Below are positions 1 through 40,444 of a stretch of 40,444 nt of DNA, in pieces (the stretch's first letter is position 1; every line of letters begins with the position of its first letter). The translations under genes were made by a program, and so were the position numbers. This stretch comes from Escherichia phage pO111, in the sequence record OR204652.1; one strand, given 5' to 3'. The notes beneath the pieces are model-generated. The model made no database searches. It saw only the letters and a list, made by a program, of their open reading frames with translations, and was not told the DNA's origin.

Positions 1-173
1 AGGGACAAGGAGAGACACTCAAGGTAACACCCAAAGGGACAACCCAAAGGTAACACTCAAAGACTCAACCCAACCCTTAGGGAACCCTCAAGGTCAACCG
101 AAGGTTGACTTTAGGTGATTGGCTGGGCTTTAGGTACCCCTATGGGGGAACTTTGGGCGCTTACACTGTGAGA
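1..173. repeat. Direct terminal repeat (genome right end in T7 orientation)
   Basis: 1..173 is identical to 40272..40444; the reverse complement resembles the T7 terminal repeat (TCTCACAGTGTA...). Confidence 0.9.
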
Positions 174-179
174 TAGTCA

Positions 180-350
180 CTCAGATTTTTATGGTATATT
201 TTAAAGGACCCTCTAGGGACTCCTTAGGCCCTCTCTAAGCAACTCTTTAGGTGACACTGATAGGATGGCCTATCTTTAGGTATAGACCTTACGGATAGAC
301 CATTAGAGGCTCTTTATGGGTATACCTTAGGACTTGACTCTATAGGGATG
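180..350. repeat. Array of short CTTTAGG/CCTTAGG motifs next to the terminal repeat (concatemer junction region)
   Basis: Several spaced copies of ctttagg-like heptamers (reverse complement CCTAAAG), as found near T7 genome ends. Confidence 0.55.
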
Positions 351-413
351 AAGTGGTGTGATGCAATCATACCGCTGAATCCCTCGGTGAGCCGTCAGTC
401 TGTCAGGAAGACC

Positions 414-563
414 CTAATCGCCACAAGTGAGTAAAGAGCAAACGGTAGACTCCAGTGAACTGAGGTCTCCAGTAAGCGATGCGTACCCAAGGGCAGCACA
501 AAGTACCACAAGAAATCGGTAGGTGACTCTATGCCGCAGTAGGTTCAACAATAAGCGGAACAT
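414..563 (-). CDS. 19.5: gp19.5-like small protein (49 aa)
   Basis: Manual translation MFRLLLNLLRHRVTYRFLVVLCAALGYASLTGDLSSLESTVCSLLTCGD; ATG preceded by AAGGGAGGAG; downstream of phiOR; below the ORF-track size cutoff. Confidence 0.6.
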   Translation of the reverse strand: MFRLLLNLLRHRVTYRFLVVLCAALGYASLTGDLSSLESTVCSLLTCGD

Positions 564-654
564 GAGTCTCCTCCCTTTATGTTGGTTGTATTAACAATAA
601 TAACAACCTACCTTATAGGTAACTTTAAGTCTTATAGTAATCTTTAGGTAGGCT

Positions 655-677
655 TCTCCCTATAGTGAGTCGAATTA
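655..677 (-). promoter_or_regulatory. T7-type phage RNAP promoter (phiOR position)
   Basis: Reverse complement TAATTCGACTCACTATAGGGAGA matches the T7 promoter consensus with one change in the -17..-13 block. Confidence 0.8.
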
Positions 678-728
678 GAATAATGGTCTGGAATCATATA
701 CTTAGACCTGTATCACTAATTTCAAATA

Positions 729-1172
729 TCAATCACTTAGGTAATCCTCAATGACCCTCTTGACCCACGCCACAGAGAGCTTATGGTATCTCGCTATGGA
801 CGTTGCGGTCCAGCCTTTATGGTATCTTCGAATCACTATGGCCTTACGTTCCTCGCTAGGGTCTCTCTTAGTTGCATCACGTTTACCTGTGGCCTTAGTT
901 GCACGACCTTTTGAGATGCAGTCCTCTATGTTCTCCTTCTGAGTCCCTTCCTTAAGGTGCTCAGGGTTAACACATGAAGGATTATCACATAGGTGCATCA
1001 CAACCATTCCGTCAGCTATCGGTCTGCCTAGATGACAACTCAGGGAATACCTGTGGGCCATCCAATGGACTCCGTTCACACGAATGCGACCATAGCCAGT
1101 CTTCGTCTTACATCCCTTAAAGTTCCAGCAACCAGTCTCCTTATCGACAACATACTTCTTCTTGCTTATCAT
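729..1172 (-). CDS. HNH endonuclease with C-terminal helix-turn-helix (putative free-standing homing endonuclease)
   Basis: 147-aa ORF; motif HLCDNPSCVNPEHL (HNH_3-like) plus C-terminal HTH; ATG with AAGGAGGT Shine-Dalgarno; lies between terminase gene 19 and phiOR. Confidence 0.8.
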   Translation of the reverse strand: MISKKKYVVDKETGCWNFKGCKTKTGYGRIRVNGVHWMAHRYSLSCHLGRPIADGMVVMHLCDNPSCVNPEHLKEGTQKENIEDCISKGRATKATGKRDATKRDPSEERKAIVIRRYHKGWTATSIARYHKLSVAWVKRVIEDYLSD

Positions 1173-1209
1173 ATTACCTCCTTAAAGCGGCCTTCCTTGG
1201 CCTCATAAA

Positions 1210-2970
1210 TCACCACTCAATGAAAGACGTACCGTATCCCTCATCGTCCTCATAGTACACATCAACTCCTCCTACAGACATCTCAATGATATGCGTAGCA
1301 GAAACCGTAGGACGCATCATGTGTTCCTCAAGGAAGTCAGCAAGTACTTCACCCTCGACCTTAACGGAATCCAATTGCATGGACTCACGGAGGTACTCAA
1401 CGCCTAACGCAAGGGAATCCAATCGGTCATCGTGTGCCAGAGCGCCTTTCTCACGGGTAATACGAGTCATCTGGTAGAACAGCGAATACTTAACGTCATG
1501 CTTACCGTCTACGTCACGAGCGGACTGGTAGTCGGCCCTAATGACCTCATCACGAATGACAAGGCGGTGAGTCTGCATGACTGGCTCAAGGGTATCACAA
1601 ATGCGCATCTCCTTCATACCACGAGCACGAATCTCTTCCATCGCACAGTTGTGGTGTTTAAGAAGGATAGGACTGAATACCTTACCAAACATACCGTCAC
1701 CGAAGTTACTCTCGTAGACAACCGTCTGGACCCCCCATTGCTTAGCTTTCTTAGCGAGCAACTCAAGGGTCTTATCGGAGTAACCATCACGGAAACCTCC
1801 AGCTTCCATAAGGTAGATGTAACCGTTCAGGGTGTATAGCACAGCGTAACCTGTTTCGTCCTTACCGCGACCACTAGGGTCAATGACCAGAATCTTCTGT
1901 TGGTACTGACCAGAGTTGTTAGAACAATCGTGGTACGTATGAAGGTCATCACCCTTAAGGCCCACGTTAGGAAGGTCCTCAATGATGTTCTGACGGTTCG
2001 GAAGCCACTGGTAATGCATTGGGGCCTTCTCTAAGTCTAAGGCCGCTACGATAGCGTCACGGAGCCTCAGAGGGTACTTCTCGGCATCACTCAGGTTCGG
2101 GTTAAGCATGAACTGTAACGTAAAGCCAGCCTTACCGTATTCCAACTCACGCTCACGGAGGTCGTCTCGGTCGAATCGAACAGGGTCTGTAGGAGTACCA
2201 GCCAGCGCCTCAGGATTCTCCTCGTACTCCGCACGAAGCATTGGAGCAAGACGTTGGGCATAGTAAAGACTCTCTTCACGCGTCCTTGGGTACAAGGCAG
2301 GCCATATGATAGTGGTATACCCACGGTTATCCTCAAGTTCCTTATACAGAGTCATCTCAGTCTGAGGAGTACCAAGGTAGATAACACGAGATGTGGGCAG
2401 CGGTTTAAGAAGCGCAGCGAACTCTTGAACTAGAGTCCATAGCTTCTCACGGGCACCCATGGTCGCACTGTTAGACGGAATCTCAACGTCATCCGCAATG
2501 ATAATATCAGCACGGCTACCAGTTAACTGACCAGTGATACCTACTGATTTCACACTAGGCGAGTGGTCAGGACTAGCAGGACCAACATCGAAACTAATCA
2601 CAGAGTCACGCTGTCCGGGTCTCGGCTTCAACTCACTGAGAAACGGTAGCAGGTCAATGATGTTCTTGATGAATATGGAGTTAGCGTCTGCACGTTCTTT
2701 AGAAGCTGATACGATAAGTATCTTCAACTGAGGGTCCCGCCATAAGGACCACACAACGAACGCACATGTGATGAACGACTTACCGATACCACGGAAAGCC
2801 TGTAAGATGAACTTCTTGTTGTCCCCATTCGCCAGTACCTTAGCCATGTCAATCTGACACTTAGTGGGCACCGGAAGGTTTAACGCCTTCCATAAGACGA
2901 ACAGGAACGCCACGAAGTCTCCTTTCAGTTGCGCCACTACGAGCGCATTACGATTGGATTGAGTAGACAC
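1210..2970 (-). CDS. 19: Terminase large subunit
   Basis: 586 aa, same length and near-identical sequence to recalled T7 gp19; GTG start after AAGGAGGT. Confidence 0.95.
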
Positions 2971-6033: not shown

Positions 6034-6056
6034 TCTCCCTATAGTGAGTCGTATTA
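6034..6056 (-). promoter_or_regulatory. T7-type phage RNAP promoter phi17
   Basis: Reverse complement TAATACGACTCACTATAGGGAGA, exact consensus. Confidence 0.9.
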
Positions 6057-18752: not shown

Positions 18753-20360
18753 AATGCCCGGCTGTAGACCTACGGAATCAGCGGCAGCAGCCATAGCCTC
18801 AGGTGAAGCTGTAGCCTGCGCAGCCATACCTTGACCAAGCGCAGCAGCACCACTATCCATACCCATTTGCATAGACTGTTGAGCCATCCTCTGTTGCTTC
18901 TGTTCTTCGGTAAGAAGGATACCAGAAGTGTCAATACCGATAGCGTTAGCAATGCGCAACTTAATCATTGCAAGGTTGATGTCAGGGTCGTCACGCATAG
19001 GAGCAAGAGCAGCCCACGCAGCGACACAACGCTCCAGCTTATCAAGGTCTTGTCCTCGACCGATTGCTTCCAGACCTGTACTAATGGTTGGCTCTACTGC
19101 TTCCTTAGGTAACTCAGGAATCTGTTGCGTGGCTTGTAGCTGCTTCAAGAGCACTCGTACCAGAGGCAATTGTAATTCTTGAGAAAGGATGGAGTAGACA
19201 CCACCTAAAGTATCTTCAAGTTCAGAAGCGACATACCGAATCTCTTCGGCTGTCACACGTTCACCTGTGCGCTGAACCGCAGAGTTCAACATAAAGGCAA
19301 ACGAAAGGCGAGCCTCAATAGCGTCACTGACAGCCTTGGCTACAGTAAAGTCTGCTTGCTTCTCCAGTTGGAGGAACGAGATGTCTTCTGGACGACCAGT
19401 AACGAAGTCACCAGTCTGAGCTTTGGTCAGTCGGCGTGGCTGGGTGATACCAGCAGGATTCACTAAGCCGATAACCTTAGAGCTAATCATGGACATCTTG
19501 ACGATAGCCTCTTGGAGATTCTCAAGGGACCGTAAGTCACCTAAGTATTCCTCAATGTACGAACGACCGTAGGATTCACCGTCAAGACGAACCATTCGAA
19601 TCGGGATGTATGGGCAAGCATCTTTAGGATATGCACCATCGGAGCCTTGTATCTCCATACCTTCAACCTCTTCGTAGCGGAGATATTCGTCTGACTCTTC
19701 GTCCAAGTAGATGTGAGTGTACACATCAATGGTCTCATCAGGTTTCTTCTCACCGCCTTGACCTTCTACAGCCTTACGGATGTCCTCAGGGAGAGCACCA
19801 AAAGCTATCTGGTCACGAGTCACCATTTGCAGAACGTTGCCGAATGCGTCTCGTTGGACCACATAAGAAGACAATCGGTACAGCTTCATGGGATTGTAGT
19901 TTGACCCTTCTGGTTCCGGTAGGTACAGTAGGACGTTACCCGCTACGACTAACTGCTTGAGAGCCTCAAAGAGAGTTACTCGGTAGCTGTTAGACTCAAT
20001 GTAGTTCATGATAATGCGCTCTACCATTGAGAGGCCCTCATCAACCTTAGCGAGTCCATCGGGGTCGCTCAGTAGTTGTTTTGCCTCGAACTCAGAGATG
20101 GTTAAGCGCATCCAAGTCTGCATGGGGAATAACGCCAGCATTAGTTTAGACGCTAGGTTATTCAGGCCACGGGCACCAACGGCTTGCCACGGAGTTGTGT
20201 AGTCTGTAGATGCGTTGTCGGAGTCCTTAGGGAATAAGGAGGGGATGGTATATTGAGCGCAATTCTGAGCGCGTGTCTCATAAGGAGCACGGTCGTTCTT
20301 TAAACGCTCATAGACGGACTTTGCGCCCTCCTCCGCAAGTCCTGTTCGTTTCTCAGCCAT
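18750..20360 (-). CDS. 8: Portal (head-to-tail connector) protein
   Basis: ORF track trimmed to MAEKRTGLAEEG (536 aa as in T7 gp8); its ATG overlaps the upstream HNH stop as TAATG. Confidence 0.93.
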   Translation of the reverse strand: MAEKRTGLAEEGAKSVYERLKNDRAPYETRAQNCAQYTIPSLFPKDSDNASTDYTTPWQAVGARGLNNLASKLMLALFPMQTWMRLTISEFEAKQLLSDPDGLAKVDEGLSMVERIIMNYIESNSYRVTLFEALKQLVVAGNVLLYLPEPEGSNYNPMKLYRLSSYVVQRDAFGNVLQMVTRDQIAFGALPEDIRKAVEGQGGEKKPDETIDVYTHIYLDEESDEYLRYEEVEGMEIQGSDGAYPKDACPYIPIRMVRLDGESYGRSYIEEYLGDLRSLENLQEAIVKMSMISSKVIGLVNPAGITQPRRLTKAQTGDFVTGRPEDISFLQLEKQADFTVAKAVSDAIEARLSFAFMLNSAVQRTGERVTAEEIRYVASELEDTLGGVYSILSQELQLPLVRVLLKQLQATQQIPELPKEAVEPTISTGLEAIGRGQDLDKLERCVAAWAALAPMRDDPDINLAMIKLRIANAIGIDTSGILLTEEQKQQRMAQQSMQMGMDSGAAALGQGMAAQATASPEAMAAAADSVGLQPGI

Positions 20361-20761
20361 TAAATATGTCTCCATGTCTTACCACATCGAGCGTCACTAA
20401 TGGTTCTCCTATGGATGCCATACATTTCTGACAACTCAGTGTTGGTTAAATTTGATGCACGAATCTCACGCACAATGGCCTCAGTGAGCTTGGCACCGTA
20501 ATGCTCTTCACCTCTGGATGCGTTCGCTCTACCTTTAGTTACACAGTCCATACGGTTATCACGCTGAGTGCCAGCTACAAGATGTTCAGGGTTGATACAC
20601 AGAGGATTGTCACAGGTATGCATTATGACCATACCAGTCGGTATCTCACCCTTTGATTTGATGTATGCTACCCTGTGAGCCAGCTGTGTCTTACCTTTGT
20701 AACCAACGAGACCGTACCCTCCTTTAGTCGTACAACCAGTATGAAGGATACAATCTGTCAT
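20360..20761 (-). CDS. HNH endonuclease with C-terminal helix-turn-helix (gene 7.7 position)
   Basis: 133 aa; HTCDNPLCINPEHL motif; same architecture as the ORFs at 729..1172 and 30008..30436. Confidence 0.8.
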   Translation of the reverse strand: MTDCILHTGCTTKGGYGLVGYKGKTQLAHRVAYIKSKGEIPTGMVIMHTCDNPLCINPEHLVAGTQRDNRMDCVTKGRANASRGEEHYGAKLTEAIVREIRASNLTNTELSEMYGIHRRTISDARCGKTWRHI

Positions 20762-23750: not shown

Positions 23751-23769
23751 AATGATTTCTCCTATAGAA

Positions 23770-23925
23770 TTAGTGACATACGGCCCAATTAGGACCCATC
23801 TTACCTTCGGTATCCAGAAGACACCGGAAGTTCCAGTGGTCTCCTACCCAGCGCATCGCTTCCTGTGCAGTCTCAATGACCACCTGAGCAATCTCTTCGG
23901 TACGGCAACCTACTTGAATCTCATC
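23770..23925 (-). CDS. 5: DNA polymerase gene 5, exon 2 (C-terminal 51 codons)
   Basis: Manual translation DEIQVGCRTEEIAQVVIETAQEAMRWVGDHWNFRCLLDTEGKMGPNWAVCH*, which continues the T7 gp5 sequence right after ...AYMAWVH. Confidence 0.85.
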   Translation of the reverse strand, partial: DEIQVGCRTEEIAQVVIETAQEAMRWVGDHWNFRCLLDTEGKMGPNWAVCH

Positions 23926-24526
23926 CTTTCTGTATTCTCCTATTACTAGGAGTGTCGGACTATATCATCAGCCTTTGAGTTGACTGTCTGGCGCTTCGGG
24001 TAACGAGGGAATCTCACCCTCGGCCCTACTCCTTTCGGATAGTCTCTACGCCTTCCACTCTCTAATCCACTTACAAGCGGCAGAGAACGTTACACCAAAC
24101 TTCTCACCTAAGTGTGCTCCTGTACATCCAGTCTCCAACCAGTATTCCTTCGCGGACTCTTTACGGTCAGCGTAGCGTTCCCTGTTTGTCTTGACTGTAT
24201 GCTCAGAACCTTCTAGTAACTGGAGGTGCTCTACGTTACAGCACGCCCTGTTCCTACACTTGTGGTCTACTTCATACCCTTCTGGTATATCTCCGTAGTG
24301 TTCCTTCCAGACTGTCCTGTGATACATCTCTAGGACACCGTTCGTCTTCTTTCGGAAATAACCATCAGTATTAAGTTTGTGTGACGTAGGGATGATACAA
24401 CCACTCGCTGTGGTCGCAAGGATTAACTTCTTGCCTCTCATATATCCTCCCTATGGCTTGGCTCGGTATTGCCCTAGAAGGGTTTCACCGAGTTCACCAG
24501 ATTTAATGTGCACAATGAGATAGTTT
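23926..24526 (-). mobile_element. Group I self-splicing intron in DNA polymerase gene 5, carrying an HNH homing-endonuclease ORF
   Basis: 601 nt between the gp5 exons; exon 1 ends in U; GUGCAC near the intron 5' end can pair with exon end GUGCAU (U-G wobble); R-like AGAGACUA and S-like GAUAUAGUCC elements; CUCCUA-GUAA-UAGGAG hairpin; intron ends in G. Confidence 0.8.
24046..24441 (-). CDS. Intron-encoded HNH homing endonuclease
   Basis: 131 aa ORF inside the intron; YEVDHKCRNRACCNVEHL HNH-type motif; ATG with GGGAGGA Shine-Dalgarno; stop codon overlaps the R-like element. Confidence 0.82.
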   Translation of the reverse strand: MRGKKLILATTASGCIIPTSHKLNTDGYFRKKTNGVLEMYHRTVWKEHYGDIPEGYEVDHKCRNRACCNVEHLQLLEGSEHTVKTNRERYADRKESAKEYWLETGCTGAHLGEKFGVTFSAACKWIREWKA

Positions 24527-26485
24527 ATGCACCCATGCCATGTACGCAAAGTCCCCATCCCAGCCATGCTTCAAGCCTTTCTCTACGAGCATCTCTTCGG
24601 TCTTGATAATCCACAGTTTGCAGATGAGAGCACCAGCAGATTGTAATAGGGTATTCAAGGCAGCGTGAGGACTACGGACGTGTACCTTACGACCATCCAG
24701 ACCTTTAATCCAGCGGCGTTTCCACTTGACTCGCTGTTCGCCAGCTACCCACTGAGAGGACTCAACAAGTGTCTGTTGGATAGACTCACGGAGTGCTGCA
24801 ATCGCTGGGGTGTTCTCAAGGAATTTCTTCTTGAGTTCCTTACCGCGCTCTTTACCAGCACCAACAATCTGTCCAATCTTCTCATCACCAGCACCATAGA
24901 GGAACCCATAGATAAACGTCTTAGCGTTATCACGGGTAGGCAATTCGGCAGCTATCTGGTTCTTAGTGTGGATGTCGCCATTGAGAATCTCGTGAGCGTA
25001 CTCACCGTTGTCAAAGCGAGCCATGAAGTGGGCCAAGCATCGCAACTCCAGACCGGAGGCGTCTATACCAGCCTGAACCCAAGGCTTACCTGTAAGTCCA
25101 TCTAGGTGATGTTCAGCGCCAAAAGCAGCGCGGCACTGCTCACCATAAGGAGAACGGACACCGGGTATCTGTGCGAGGTTAGGGAAAGCGTGAGTAGCGC
25201 GCCCAGTAACAGCGCCGTTGGGATTAACAGAACCATGAATTTTACCATCCTCAGCAACGTAACGAAGCCACGCCTTGTCTCCCTCAGCTGACTGTCCGAT
25301 TCTCTTCTGAATCATCAAGTATTCTTTAATGAGGTCGATTGCAGCTTGCTTCTCAGGGTCATCTACACGTACTCCTTCGAGTACCTCATCGTCCACCACA
25401 GGCGCACCCTTATCGGTGTACTTCGTGGGGACCCACCCAGCCTCTTGAAGTTTCTTCTGAATGTGGTCACGGGACGAAGGGTTAAACACTACGTGCTCTA
25501 CCGGAGTATATGGGGCACCAGCAACGTACTCGCGGGTATCCAGTTCGCAAGGCTCACGGCCTTCTCGTTGTGCCTTGTTCTTAGGCTTCTTAAAGATACC
25601 ACCAACTTTAGGTGTCTTAATGCGAGGGTATTTAGGCAGTGGTTTACCTGTCCGAGGATGGCAGAACATCTCAGTGCCACCTTTAGGCTGATACCACGAG
25701 CCGAACGTTTCGGTCAGCTTACGCAGCAACTCTGAGCGGCGAGCAGCCAACTCTACGTACAACTCCTCGATTGCTTTCGTGTCAAACGGGAATCCATTAC
25801 GCTCTTGCTTAGCGAGTAGCCATGCAGCGCGATGTTCAACATCAACGGCCTCAAGGGATTCTGACCAGAACGTAGTGTAGCCTACGTCCGTAAAGTCAAT
25901 CTCAGGAGGGAAGTAATGTTTATCAGAGAGTAGCTTCTCAAGGAGAGCCTTAGTGACCACAACGTCCTGAACGTTATAGGCCATCATCTCTTCGTTGAAG
26001 TTCCACCACTCCATTCCGTCAACGTATTCTTCACCTTGCTCTTCAAGCATACGCTTAAAGTCATCCTTGTATTCACCCTTCATCTCACCTAAGCGATAGC
26101 CCCACGCCTCCAAAGCGTGAGACCCAAAGCGTTTACCGGGCAACTTACCGGAACGCAGAAGACCCATATCGGTGTCTTTAAGGTTAGAGTGAATCAATCG
26201 TGACAGCACAAGGGTGTCGATACAGTTCTCACGGGGAAGGTGGAACTCACGGTTCAATTGTAGCTTTGCCAGTTTGGTCAATGCGGGAACGTCATACTTG
26301 TGACCGTTGTGGAACACGATAAGACCGCCTCGTGCAACCTCGGCTTCCAGCGCATCCAGATACGCACCGAAGTCACTCGGACGGTAGCTTACGTACTCAG
26401 CGGTGGAGTAGTCATAGATAACCCCGCAGTGGAACTTAGTGACGCTCTCTAAGAGGGCGTTAGCTTCGATGTCAGAAACGATCAT
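24527..26485 (-). CDS. 5: DNA polymerase gene 5, exon 1 (653 codons)
   Basis: Near-identical to recalled T7 gp5 residues 1-653; the unspliced ORF runs 7 extra codons (KLSHCAH*) into the intron. Confidence 0.9.
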
Positions 26486-27325: not shown

Positions 27326-29075
<1,750 letters not shown>

Positions 29076-29107
29076 TCAATGATGCGAACAAAGGGAAACC
29101 GTTGTGG

Positions 29108-29130
29108 TCTCCCTATAGTGAGTTCAATTA
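29108..29130 (-). promoter_or_regulatory. T7-type phage RNAP promoter (phi3.8 position) with a phi10-like leader
   Basis: Reverse complement TAATTGAACTCACTATAGGGAGACCACAACGGTTTCCC; gene 4 follows directly, with no gene 3.8. Confidence 0.8.
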
Positions 29131-29131
29131 A

Positions 29132-29587: not shown

Positions 29588-30036
29588 TATTTCTTCTCCT
29601 TCTTAATAATCATTTTGTCCCAAGGAATCTCCTTACTAGGTTCTTTAAGCCATTCCGCAGGTATCAACTTGTCTGCGAACTTAATGCTATGTTTTTCTGC
29701 CCACTCACCGTAGCTGGTGGGAGACCCTTTGTATAACTTGGTGCGACTTGAAGAGAACACGATGCGTATATCGAGGGATGGGAACTGTTCGCGAATAAGT
29801 AAATGTTTCTTACGGTCTTCCGCTTCAAATAGTCCCTTGAACTCTACTATAATACCGTTTGGTAAAAGCGCATCTGGTGTGTATTTATGATTACTCGCTG
29901 GGATTACGTAGGGGATTGAGAAAGACTCATACTTAGCCTTGACCCCCATGCTCTCCAAGCGAGCCATATTCTTCTCTTCAAGTCCACTTCGGTAGTTTCC
30001 TACACGTTTAATTCCTCTTGCTGCGTAACCTGCCAT
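29587..30036 (-). CDS. 3: Endonuclease I (Holliday junction resolvase)
   Basis: 149 aa, matches recalled T7 gp3. Confidence 0.93.
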   Translation of the reverse strand: MAGYAARGIKRVGNYRSGLEEKNMARLESMGVKAKYESFSIPYVIPASNHKYTPDALLPNGIIVEFKGLFEAEDRKKHLLIREQFPSLDIRIVFSSSRTKLYKGSPTSYGEWAEKHSIKFADKLIPAEWLKEPSKEIPWDKMIIKKEKK

Positions 30037-30436
30037 AAGTCCTCCTGTTTCGTATCATACTGATAGTCGCAGGAGAAACCCCAAAGTCATCAGCCAATTC
30101 GTAGCCTTTCTTTGTGGAAGACATTATGGTTAGTACATCATCATCACTAAGTTTATGTCCTTTACGTCCCCTCCCCTTGGAGGCCATATCTGCTAGGTTC
30201 TCAGCTTGAGTCCCTAGAGATAAGTGTTCAGGGTTGCAGCACTTACGGTTATCACAAGAATGCATTACAACATCGTTAGGTGCTGCCCCAGCCATGACCC
30301 TGTGAATGTAAACGGGGCGACCAGTTTCTGGGTTGCGAATCTGACCGTACCCATTTGTTTTCACAGAGCCTTGCCACTCCCAGCATCCAGAAGACGTAAC
30401 CTCAATTCGCTTGAGGATTTTCTCCTGCAAGCCCAT
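30008..30436 (-). CDS. HNH endonuclease with C-terminal helix-turn-helix (gene 2.8 position)
   Basis: 142 aa; HSCDNRKCCNPEHL motif; overlaps the gene 3 start by 29 nt. Confidence 0.8.
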   Translation of the reverse strand: MGLQEKILKRIEVTSSGCWEWQGSVKTNGYGQIRNPETGRPVYIHRVMAGAAPNDVVMHSCDNRKCCNPEHLSLGTQAENLADMASKGRGRKGHKLSDDDVLTIMSSTKKGYELADDFGVSPATISMIRNRRTYGRLRSKRN

Positions 30437-38918: not shown

Positions 38919-39280
38919 TACTCTTCGCCCTCTTCGTAGTCTTCCTCTTCTTCGACTTCCTCAAGATACTCGTTCAGTAAGTCTTCTGCATCTTCCCAGA
39001 GGTCGATTGTGAGTTGCTCATAGATACGTGCTTGCAGGATACGGATTACGTCCTTGGTGTCCGGCATAAGACCAGAGTCCTCAAACTCAAGGTCAATGCC
39101 CTCGCTTGCCATTACACTGAAAATGTCGCTGTAGTAGTGCGGAACAGCATTATCAGCCGCCATATGCACTGCATCGTGCAGGTCATCAGCGTCACGGATG
39201 TCATCATAACGGATGTTTTCTTTCAGCATTTCGTAAGCGTGATCTAAAACGTTGTTATAAGTCATGTTAGACATAGCCAT
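38918..39280 (-). CDS. ocr: Ocr anti-restriction protein (DNA mimic)
   Basis: 120 aa, highly acidic, [30 protein letters not shown] near-identical to recalled T7 gp0.3. Confidence 0.95.
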
Positions 39281-40271: not shown

Positions 40272-40444
40272 AGGGACAAGGAGAGACACTCAAGGTAACA
40301 CCCAAAGGGACAACCCAAAGGTAACACTCAAAGACTCAACCCAACCCTTAGGGAACCCTCAAGGTCAACCGAAGGTTGACTTTAGGTGATTGGCTGGGCT
40401 TTAGGTACCCCTATGGGGGAACTTTGGGCGCTTACACTGTGAGA
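40272..40444. repeat. Direct terminal repeat (genome left end in T7 orientation)
   Basis: Identical to 1..173. Confidence 0.9.

What the first reader, a model, noticed from the sequence alone, without database searches (positions are those of the whole stretch)
729..1172. HNH-HTH endonuclease gene between terminase large subunit and phiOR
A 147-aa ORF with an HLCDNPSCVNPEHL HNH_3-type motif and a C-terminal helix-turn-helix, with a strong AAGGAGGT Shine-Dalgarno, occupies the interval after gene 19. In T7 this interval is short and non-coding (about 100 bp, from memory). It has the same domain architecture as the HNH ORFs at 20360..20761 and 30008..30436, so it looks like a third paralog that has spread to a new site.
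Basis: partly seen in the sequence, partly recalled or inferred. Interest (0 to 1): 0.55.

Follow-up and report, generated by a model that had tools for sequence, protein, structure and literature searches.

The report
Known T7-group homing endonuclease gene 19.4
The ORF is a real, intact selfish-type HNH nuclease gene sitting just after the terminase gene of a T7-like phage, but the same gene at the same spot is already annotated in some two dozen related phages (gene 19.4 of phage 13a), so it is ordinary.

Summary
Observation confirmed. Window 729..1172 (minus strand) is a 147-aa ORF with an AAGGAGGT Shine-Dalgarno. It has an HNH_3 nuclease domain and a C-terminal HTH_23 domain, and lies between gene 19 (terminase large subunit) and promoter phiOR of a complete T7-like genome. 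T7 has only a ~98-nt non-coding spacer there.

It is not new. Orthologues of 94-99% identity occupy the same site in about 23 GenBank records, annotated 'HNH endonuclease' or 'homing endonuclease'. Phage 13a calls it gene 19.4 (70% identity), and Berlinvirus Yepe2 has a 'gp7.7 homolog' there (53%).

The two other HNH ORFs are the T7 gene 2.8 and 7.7 counterparts. They match this ORF only over the nuclease domain (41-48%), so they are old paralogues, not a recent intragenomic spread.

The predicted fold is closest to the nicking homing endonuclease I-HmuI, and the putative catalytic and zinc residues are invariant. dN/dS is about 0.05-0.1. Presence is patchy (6 of 13 close relatives) and does not follow the gene 19 tree, and the left junction is sharp.

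Best reading: a free-standing HNH homing endonuclease gene, expressed late with gene 19. Cleavage, target and mobility are inferred, not shown. Interest is low.

The parts
729..1172 (-). 147-aa HNH-HTH endonuclease ORF, orthologue of phage 13a gene 19.4; the stop codon is included
   Evidence: ORF list. Pfam HNH_3 plus HTH_23. PHROG 6254. tblastn orthologues. dN/dS of 0.05-0.11.
930..1058 (-). HNH_3 core (residues 39-81), with the proposed general base H60, metal ligand N81, and Zn ligands C62, C67 and H72 (plus C15 upstream)
   Evidence: Pfam stretch 39-81. These residues are invariant in the 37-sequence alignment A2. H60 aligns with H34 of T7 gp3.8, the residue mutated as the active-site His in bioRxiv 10.1101/2025.09.07.674715. 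The roles of the residues are inferred.
738..863 (-). C-terminal three-helix HTH (residues 104-145), the presumed DNA-recognition module. Most of it lies in the segment that is swapped relative to 13a gp19.4.
   Evidence: Pfam HTH_23 at 27.4 bits, above the cut-off. AF2 helices at 105-118, 123-130 and 134-146. Window 770..950 is only ~42% identical in nucleotides to 13a, against ~93% in the N-terminal part.
1176..1183 (-). Shine-Dalgarno AAGGAGGT, 3 nt before the ATG
   Evidence: Read directly from the sequence. Conserved in all HEG+ relatives.
587..1203 (-). HEG+ haplotype block: everything that differs consistently from relatives lacking the gene, from 6 nt after the gene 19 stop to the hairpin before the gene 19.5 ribosome-binding site
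   Evidence: Fixed-difference scan of 8 HEG+ against 7 HEG- loci. There are none in the last 600 nt of gene 19. The first is at 1202 and the last at 587.
655..677 (-). phiOR promoter (TAATTCGACTCACTATAGGGAGA, T at -13), 51 nt downstream of the ORF stop
   Evidence: Pattern search: 12 matches in the window against 0.01 expected. Annotated as phiOR in 13a at the same position.
1210..2970 (-). Gene 19, terminase large subunit, immediately upstream (37-nt gap)
   Evidence: 98.5% amino-acid identity to T7 gp19. T7 annotation.
414..563 (-). Gene 19.5, the next gene downstream of phiOR
   Evidence: ORF list. tblastn to the T7 and 13a gene 19.5.

Best explanation
This is a free-standing homing-endonuclease gene of the I-HmuI-like HNH_3 class. 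It is orthologous to gene 19.4 of coliphage 13a and occupies the intergenic slot between gene 19 and promoter phiOR of a complete T7-like genome.

- **Protein.** It has an N-terminal zinc-stabilised beta-beta-alpha-metal nuclease domain. The proposed roles are H60 as general base, N81 as metal ligand, and C15/C62/C67/H72 as zinc ligands. A flexible linker joins it to a C-terminal helix-turn-helix that would supply sequence recognition.
- **Expression (inferred).** It has its own strong ribosome-binding site. No promoter or terminator separates it from gene 19, so it should be made late, on the class III transcripts that run through genes 17-19.
- **Proposed mechanism (inferred).** In a mixed infection with a relative that lacks the gene, the enzyme nicks or cuts the ~90-nt gene 19/phiOR spacer of that genome, or its junction with gene 19. 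The HEG+ genome no longer has that sequence. Recombinational repair from the HEG+ genome then copies the gene and its flanks into the recipient.

Shown here are the gene, its domains, conservation, selection, patchy distribution and junctions. Nuclease activity, target site and mobility are inferred.
For: **Domains and fold**
- HNH_3 and HTH_23 both score above the Pfam cut-offs. PHROG 6254 scores 3e-60.
- The AlphaFold model has mean pLDDT 89.4. Its best PDB match is I-HmuI (1u3e, probability 1.00, E=1.2e-3), followed by I-PpoI. The C-terminal part matches Fis and resolvase HTH domains only weakly.

**An active gene, not a relic**
- C15, H40, H60, C62, N64, C67, N69, H72 and N81 are invariant across 37 homologues down to 35% identity.
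- dN/dS is 0.05-0.11 at dS 0.17-0.48, excluding the two closest pairs (dS about 0.03).

**Same site in other phages**
- 13a gene 19.4, HZ2R8 'HNH endonuclease' and Yepe2 'gp7.7 homolog' all lie between gene 19 and phiOR.

**Mobility signature**
- Among 13 IMG/VR loci with gp19 at least 96% identical, 6 carry the gene and 7 do not.
- The two kinds are intermixed in gene 19 neighbour-joining trees, including the 3' 560 nt.
- The left junction is sharp, 6 nt after the gene 19 stop. There are no fixed HEG+/HEG- differences in the last 600 nt of gene 19.
- The spacer of HEG- genomes is conserved between the T7-like and the Berlinvirus-like loci of this sample (genus known only for Yepe2). It is replaced in the HEG+ genomes of both lineages.

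**Expression context**
- The nearest upstream T7-type promoter is phi17 at 6034..6056. No terminator-like site was found in 300..1500.
Against: - No cleavage, nicking or homing has been measured for this protein or, as far as my searches show, for any orthologue.
- The target site is unknown.
- The trees carry no support values. T7-group phages are mosaic in general, so the patchy distribution could reflect ordinary recombination or deletion rather than endonuclease-driven homing.
- Strong purifying selection over dS of about 0.5 is more than a purely selfish gene strictly needs. It hints at a benefit to the phage.
- The Foldseek match to I-HmuI is modest (TM 0.45, E about 1e-3).
Confidence: 0.8

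Rival explanations
1. Domesticated or dual-use protein. The gene is kept because it helps the phage rather than, or as well as, spreading itself. It might mask DNA ends from break-sensing defence systems through DNA binding, or damage competing co-infecting phages (interference competition).
For: - dN/dS of about 0.08 is maintained over dS up to 0.48.
- A 2025 preprint reports that T7 gp3.8 and another I-HmuI-like HNH protein attenuate the GAPS4 defence system independently of the catalytic His (bioRxiv 10.1101/2025.09.07.674715).
Against: - T7 and 7 of 13 close relatives do without the gene.
- The catalytic and zinc residues are invariant. That would not be needed for a binding-only role.
- Nothing ties this particular protein to any defence system.
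- This reading is not exclusive of homing.
Confidence: 0.25
2. Packaging accessory nuclease. An HNH protein encoded next to the terminase assists terminase cutting of concatemers, as HK97 gp74 does in cos phages.
For: - The gene lies 37 nt downstream of the terminase large-subunit gene.
- HNH genes next to terminase genes are a known pattern (PMC3592412 abstract).
Against: - There is no match to the classical HNH family PF01844 at E up to 1. The match is to HNH_3.
- T7 and most relatives package DNA without this gene.
- The genome has 173-bp direct terminal repeats, not cos ends.
- The C-terminal HTH varies between alleles, unlike a conserved partner of a 98%-conserved terminase.
Confidence: 0.03
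3. Recent intragenomic duplication.7 or 2.8 endonuclease that jumped to a new site within this genome.
For: The HNH domains are 41-48% identical. GenBank records label some orthologues 'gp7.7 homolog'.
Against: - Identity is low and limited to about 85 residues, and the C-terminal domains do not align.
- Orthologues at the same site are 53-99% identical in other phage genera and species.
- PHROG places this ORF in 6254. The other two ORFs score best in PHROG 59 and PHROG 1872.
Confidence: 0.03
4. Decaying relic or spurious ORF with no function.
For: Homing endonuclease genes often degenerate after fixation.
Against: - The reading frame is intact in all 8 orthologues examined.
- dN/dS is 0.05-0.11.
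- Active-site residues are invariant.
- The strong Shine-Dalgarno is conserved.
Confidence: 0.02

Closest known systems
Gene 19.4 of coliphage 13a (EU734174, gp19.4) and the 'HNH endonuclease' / 'homing endonuclease' CDS of HZ2R8, HZP2, IME390, N30, CICC 80001, JeanTinguely, Yanou and others
   Same: Same gene at the same site, between gene 19 and phiOR, with the same upstream leader and Shine-Dalgarno. Identity is 94-99% in about 23 records and 70% to 13a gp19.4.
   Different: Compared with 13a, residues 1-81 are 96% identical, but the linker and HTH are only ~40% identical. This is a swap of the DNA-binding module. None of these proteins appears to have been characterised biochemically.
T7 gp7.7 and gp2.8 (HNH endonuclease-like proteins of T7) and their counterparts in this window (20360..20761, 30008..30436)
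   Same: Same HNH_3 zinc-containing nuclease core, and the same small size with a C-terminal helical DNA-binding tail.
   Different: Only 39-48% identical, and only over about 85 residues. They sit at different genome sites, have a different C-terminal domain, and score best in a different PHROG.
I-HmuI (PDB 1U3E), intron-encoded HNH nicking homing endonuclease of Bacillus phage SPO1
   Same: It is the best structural match to the model. Both combine an HNH beta-beta-alpha-metal nuclease with a C-terminal helix-turn-helix. Pfam HNH_3 is, from my own knowledge, the family that contains I-HmuI.
   Different: - This ORF is free-standing rather than intron-encoded.
- It is shorter (147 aa against 174 aa).
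- It carries a Cys/His zinc site (a zf-His_Me_endon match just below the Pfam cut-off, 26.2 against 27 bits).
- Sequence similarity is too low for a PDB sequence hit.
- Nicking has not been tested.
Free-standing homing endonucleases of T4-like phages (MobE, SegB, SegG)
   Same: They are intergenic and promoter-less or co-transcribed, patchily distributed among relatives, and expected to spread with their flanking DNA (PMC2790892 and PMC2330249 abstracts).
   Different: The Seg proteins belong to a different nuclease family (GIY-YIG). Homing is shown experimentally for them and not here.
HK97 gp74-type HNH proteins next to terminase genes
   Same: An HNH protein encoded adjacent to a terminase gene.
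   Different: The HNH family differs (no PF01844 match). The gene is dispensable in the group, since T7 lacks it. The phage has direct terminal repeats rather than cos ends.

Membership tests
HNH_3 / I-HmuI-like His-Me finger endonucleases | Sequence match to the family profile above the curated threshold | tested here: met
   PF13392 at 35.2 bits against a cut-off of 24.8, E=9.3e-9.
HNH_3 / I-HmuI-like His-Me finger endonucleases | Beta-beta-alpha-metal fold | tested here: met
   The AF2 model has pLDDT 89.4, with strands 57-60 and 73-76 followed by helix 78-87. The top Foldseek PDB hit is I-HmuI 1u3e (probability 1.00, E=1.2e-3, TM 0.45), then I-PpoI. The match strength is moderate.
HNH_3 / I-HmuI-like His-Me finger endonucleases | Catalytic His (general base) and metal-binding Asn retained | tested here: met
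   H60 and N81 are invariant in 37 homologues. H60 aligns with H34 of T7 gp3.8, the residue used as the active-site mutant in bioRxiv 10.1101/2025.09.07.674715. The assignment of roles is inferred.
HNH_3 / I-HmuI-like His-Me finger endonucleases | Site-specific DNA nicking or cleavage | not testable with these tools
   Needs purified protein and substrate DNA.
Free-standing homing endonuclease gene (HEG) | Stand-alone gene in an intergenic region, not inside an intron or intein | tested here: met
   It lies between the gene 19 stop (1210) and phiOR (677) and has its own Shine-Dalgarno. There is no Rfam match here.
Free-standing homing endonuclease gene (HEG) | Presence/absence polymorphism among close relatives at one fixed site, not following phylogeny | tested here: met
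   6 HEG+ and 7 HEG- among 13 loci with gp19 at least 96% identical. They are intermixed in gene 19 neighbour-joining trees, which carry no support values. The junction is identical in all HEG+ loci.
Free-standing homing endonuclease gene (HEG) | Target sequence present in the HEG- allele and absent or altered in the HEG+ allele | tested here: inconclusive
   The ~90-nt spacer of HEG- genomes, with its conserved TGCATAGGGATGCA hairpin, is replaced in HEG+ genomes. Gene 19 shows no fixed differences. This is consistent with the feature, but the real target is unknown.
Free-standing homing endonuclease gene (HEG) | Endonuclease-dependent unidirectional transfer with co-conversion of flanks in mixed infection | not testable with these tools
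   Only an indirect hint is available. In this sample the gene is strictly linked to a distinct haplotype running from phiOR to gene 19.5.
HK97 gp74-like packaging HNH proteins | Classical HNH (PF01844) domain | tested here: not met
   PF01844 is absent from the Pfam hits at E up to 1.
HK97 gp74-like packaging HNH proteins | Conserved in all relatives that share the terminase, in a cos-type phage | tested here: not met
   It is absent from T7 and from 7 of 13 close relatives. The genome ends in 173-bp direct repeats.

The most novel reading that the evidence does not exclude
The gene 19/phiOR endonuclease is an actively homing nickase whose DNA-recognition module is exchanged between alleles, while the nuclease domain and flanks stay about 93-96% identical. 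Examples are the window type, the 13a/Vi06 type and the Berlinvirus type. The exchange would retarget the enzyme as recipient spacers change. Its unusually strong purifying selection would reflect an added benefit to the phage, such as competitor exclusion or masking of DNA ends from break-sensing defences, as reported for T7 gp3.8.
Probability: 0.2. Interest if true: 0.4.

Novelty: already known. Interest (0 to 1): 0.12.

Why it matters
It matters little beyond correct annotation. The gene should be labelled as the gene 19.4-type HNH homing endonuclease, one of four HNH genes in this genome.

This complement differs from that of T7. The window has the 2.8-site, intron-5, 7.7-site and 19.4-site genes. 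It lacks the HNH gene 3.8, and also gene 5.3, which is not HNH-like here.

It is one more example of how mobile nuclease genes account for much of the gene-content variation among otherwise near-identical T7-group phages.

The one modestly useful lead is a natural experiment for how free-standing homing endonucleases change specificity. The nuclease domain is conserved, the HTH module is swapped, and the ancestral spacer is well defined and conserved. No member of this group has been tested biochemically.

Tried and rejected
- **PDB sequence search.** No hit at E up to 1. The fold search was needed instead.
- **NCBIfam.** Only meaningless sub-threshold hits.
- **Rfam, whole window at gathering thresholds.** Nothing was found. 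In particular there is no RNA element at the finding.
- **Pairwise MAFFT of the window against T7 across the indel.** It gave a spurious alignment inside the insert. I replaced it with direct junction inspection and a 15-sequence alignment.
- **An 'empty' allele carrying the window-type phiOR flank.** I looked for one and found none. Coverage classes are 100%, 88%, 87% and then 49% or lower. All 7 HEG- loci carry the T7-type flank.
- **T at -13 of phiOR as a marker of the HEG+ allele.** Rejected, because the HEG- locus L037 also has AATTCGACTC.
- **Packaging-HNH idea.** Considered and rejected.
- **Literature searches.** Searches for gp19.4, gene 19.4 or a study of this endonuclease found nothing specific. 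One search failed on a term that was too short.
- **First translation of the gene 5 region.** It used the wrong frame and was redone.

Full report
**What the window is.** The window is a complete T7-like (Teseptimavirus-type) genome given as the reverse complement of the usual T7 orientation. It carries 173-bp direct terminal repeats (1..173 = 40272..40444). Twelve T7-type promoters all lie on the minus strand. Gene 19 (terminase large subunit) is 1210..2970 (minus strand) and is 98.5% identical to T7 gp19. phiOR is 655..677 (minus strand) and gene 19.5 is 414..563 (minus strand).

**Checking the observation.**
- The ORF at 729..1172 (minus strand) exists as described. It is 147 aa with an ATG start, preceded by AAGGAGGT at 1176..1183, and starts 37 nt after the gene 19 stop.
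- Pfam finds HNH_3 (E=9.3e-9, residues 39-81) and HTH_23 (E=2.7e-6, residues 104-145), both above their curated cut-offs. A match to the zinc-binding loop of His-Me endonucleases falls just below its cut-off.
- PHROGs places the ORF in phrog_6254 'HNH endonuclease' at 3e-60.
- In T7 the interval from the gene 19 stop (39130) to the phiOR start (39229) is 98 nt with no annotated ORF.
- The ORFs at 20360..20761 and 30008..30436 also have HNH_3 domains. Their C-terminal HTH matches are weaker and below threshold.

**Is it new? No.**
- tblastn against 50,697 phage records finds the same protein at 94-99% identity in about 23 records. These include HZ2R8, HZP2, AH67C600_Q5, CQ615, IME390, PHB20, ESh6, JB01, CICC 80001, N30, vB_Yep_9, LNA7, YpYeO9, Yanou, JeanTinguely and 3A_8767. 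RefSeq names it 'HNH endonuclease', and some authors name it 'putative homing endonuclease'.
- More distant matches are Rambo 'homing endonuclease' at 82%, phage 13a gp19.4 at 70%, Vi06 at 67%, and 50-53% in Yepe2 ('gp7.7 homolog'), the fPS Yersinia phages, BP12A and PP74.
- In 13a, HZ2R8 and Yepe2 the annotated gene lies exactly between gene 19 and phiOR.
- The gene has therefore carried a name (gene 19.4) in a 2008-series GenBank accession (EU734174). The window's copy is 98.6% identical to a RefSeq protein.

**Relationship to the two other HNH ORFs.**
- BLASTP gives 48% identity over 85 aa to the 7.7-site ORF and 41% over 91 aa to the 2.8-site ORF. In both cases only the nuclease domain aligns.
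- Those two ORFs align with each other over their whole length, including the C-terminal tail.
- The 2.8-site ORF is 58% identical to T7 gp2.8. The 7.7-site ORF is 47% identical to T7 gp7.7.
- The three are therefore old paralogues of one nuclease family. The ORF under study belongs to a separate lineage that is resident at the gene 19/phiOR site. A recent duplication within this genome is ruled out.

**Anatomy of the protein.**
- In an alignment of 37 homologues down to 35% identity, the invariant residues are C15, G26, A39, H40, H60, C62, N64, C67, N69, P70, H72, L73 and N81.
- H60 aligns with H34 of T7 gp3.8. That residue was mutated as the HNH active-site histidine in a 2025 preprint (10.1101/2025.09.07.674715).
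- I infer that H60 is the general base, N81 the metal-binding Asn of an H-N-N variant, and C15/C62/C67/H72 a structural zinc site.
- AlphaFold2, run with this alignment, gives mean pLDDT 89.4. The model has a small beta-sheet, the beta-beta-alpha unit (strands 57-60 and 73-76, helix 78-87), a low-confidence linker (residues about 90-104) and three C-terminal helices.
- Foldseek against the PDB ranks I-HmuI first (1u3e, probability 1.00, E=1.2e-3, TM 0.45), then I-PpoI and SMAD MH1 domains, which are His-Me finger derivatives. Fis and resolvase HTH domains match the tail only weakly.
- From my own knowledge, I-HmuI is a nicking enzyme with the same nuclease-plus-HTH layout. I-PfoP3I, from a T7-like cyanophage, is also a nicking HNH enzyme (PMC3428280). 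A nickase is therefore the most likely activity, but this is an inference.

**Is it a working gene?** Among eight orthologues the reading frame is intact. Nei-Gojobori dN/dS is 0.05-0.11 for pairs with dS of 0.17-0.48. This is strong purifying selection, not decay.

**Insertion site and distribution.**
- I fetched 80 loci around gp19 relatives from IMG/VR. Among the 13 with gp19 at least 96% identical, 6 carry the gene and 7 do not. Among the loci with gp19 about 80% identical that carry a Yepe2-type phiOR (TATTGGGA), 2 carry a 48-52% orthologue at the same place. None of the loci at about 79.6% identity has it.
- In neighbour-joining trees of gene 19, carriers and non-carriers are intermixed. 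This holds for the whole gene and for three segments, including the 3' 560 nt next to the site. For example, L025+ pairs with L026-. These trees have no support values, so this is suggestive only.
- A scan for fixed differences between 8 carriers and 7 non-carriers finds none in the last 600 nt of gene 19. The first is at window 1202, just after the shared TGATTTATG. The differences continue to window 587.
- The carrier allele is thus a ~617-bp block (587..1203). It replaces the ~250-bp block of non-carriers. Only the phiOR core is shared inside it.
- In the Berlinvirus-like lineage the replacement is tighter. It runs from ~10 nt after the gene 19 stop to exactly position -17 of phiOR.
- The ~90-nt spacer of non-carriers is homologous between the two lineages. 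It holds a conserved small hairpin, TGCATAGGGATGCA in T7. Carriers have lost it.
- Together with the absence of protective changes in gene 19, this makes the spacer, or its junction with gene 19, the most economical guess for the target. It remains only a guess.

**Module swap.** Against 13a the nucleotide identity is about 93% through gene 19 and through the first ~220 nt of the ORF. It drops to about 42% across window 770..950, which covers the linker and most of the HTH, then partly recovers and is back to over 90% only from about window 630. At the protein level, residues 1-81 are 96% identical and the rest about 40%. Vi06 shares the 13a-type tail. The DNA-binding module has been exchanged or has diverged independently of the nuclease, as expected for modular homing endonucleases.

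**Expression.** The nearest upstream phage promoter is phi17 at 6034..6056. No terminator-like site was found in 300..1500. The gene should therefore be read on late transcripts together with genes 17-19 and translated from its own Shine-Dalgarno. This is inferred.

**Rivals.**
- *Packaging helper of the HK97 gp74 kind.* This is unlikely. There is no PF01844 match, the gene is absent from T7 and half of the close relatives, and the genome has direct terminal repeats.
- *Benefit to the phage.* Interference with competitors, or attenuation of break-sensing defences as reported for T7 gp3.8, is compatible with the strong selection. It does not exclude homing.
- *Decay or a chance ORF.* Excluded.

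**Verdict.** The 'new site' idea is wrong, because this is the known gene 19.4 locus of the T7 group. Novelty: already known. Interest is low.

Noticed in passing
window 23770..26485 (minus strand); intervening sequence 23926..24526: Gene 5 (DNA polymerase) is split after '...AYMAWVH' and resumes at 'DEIQVGCRTEE...'. The 601-nt gap matches Rfam group I intron RF00028 over the full model (38.4 bits, below the gathering score of 50, E=4e-8). It contains a 131-aa HNH ORF (24046..24441), the fourth HNH gene of this genome. From memory, this resembles the known intron plus I-TslI-type endonuclease in DNA polymerase genes of T7-like phages.
   Followed up: partly
L012 (Salmonella phage Vi06) 347..1183: In Vi06 the terminase gene 19 itself is interrupted at '...IIIADD | VEIPSNS' by ~830 bp holding a 200-aa ORF. 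This is probably another intron or homing-endonuclease insertion, in addition to its 19.4-type gene.
   Followed up: partly
window 583..607: A 6-bp stem with an AT-rich loop lies just before the gene 19.5 ribosome-binding site (GGTTGT...ACAACC). T7 has GGTGAT...ATCACC at the same place. The stem is kept through paired changes between the two haplotypes, which suggests a conserved RNA or DNA hairpin. It also marks the right edge of the HEG+ block.
   Followed up: no
window 1189..1202 (minus strand) and T7 39140..39165: Genomes without the endonuclease have a conserved hairpin (TGCAT-AGGG-ATGCA) right after gene 19, shared by T7-like and Berlinvirus-like lineages. Carriers have a different small palindrome (GGCC-AAGGAA-GGCC) in the same position, upstream of the Shine-Dalgarno.
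   Followed up: partly
window 29061..29131 and 23751..23769: The mobile-gene complement differs from T7. There is no gene 3.8 (only 71 nt lie between genes 3.5 and 4A, with a phi3.8-like promoter at 29108..29130). There is no gene 5.3 between gene 5 and gene 5.5. The intron ORF and the 19.4-type gene are extra.
   Followed up: partly
window 1..173 and 40272..40444: An exact 173-bp direct terminal repeat shows that the window is a whole linear genome in reverse orientation.
   Followed up: yes
L004 (Yepe2) and L055, downstream of phiOR: The Yepe2-like loci L004 and L055 carry a tandem array of a ~13-nt unit (GTGACTACTCTTA) a short way downstream of phiOR; L049 has at most a single copy.
   Followed up: no
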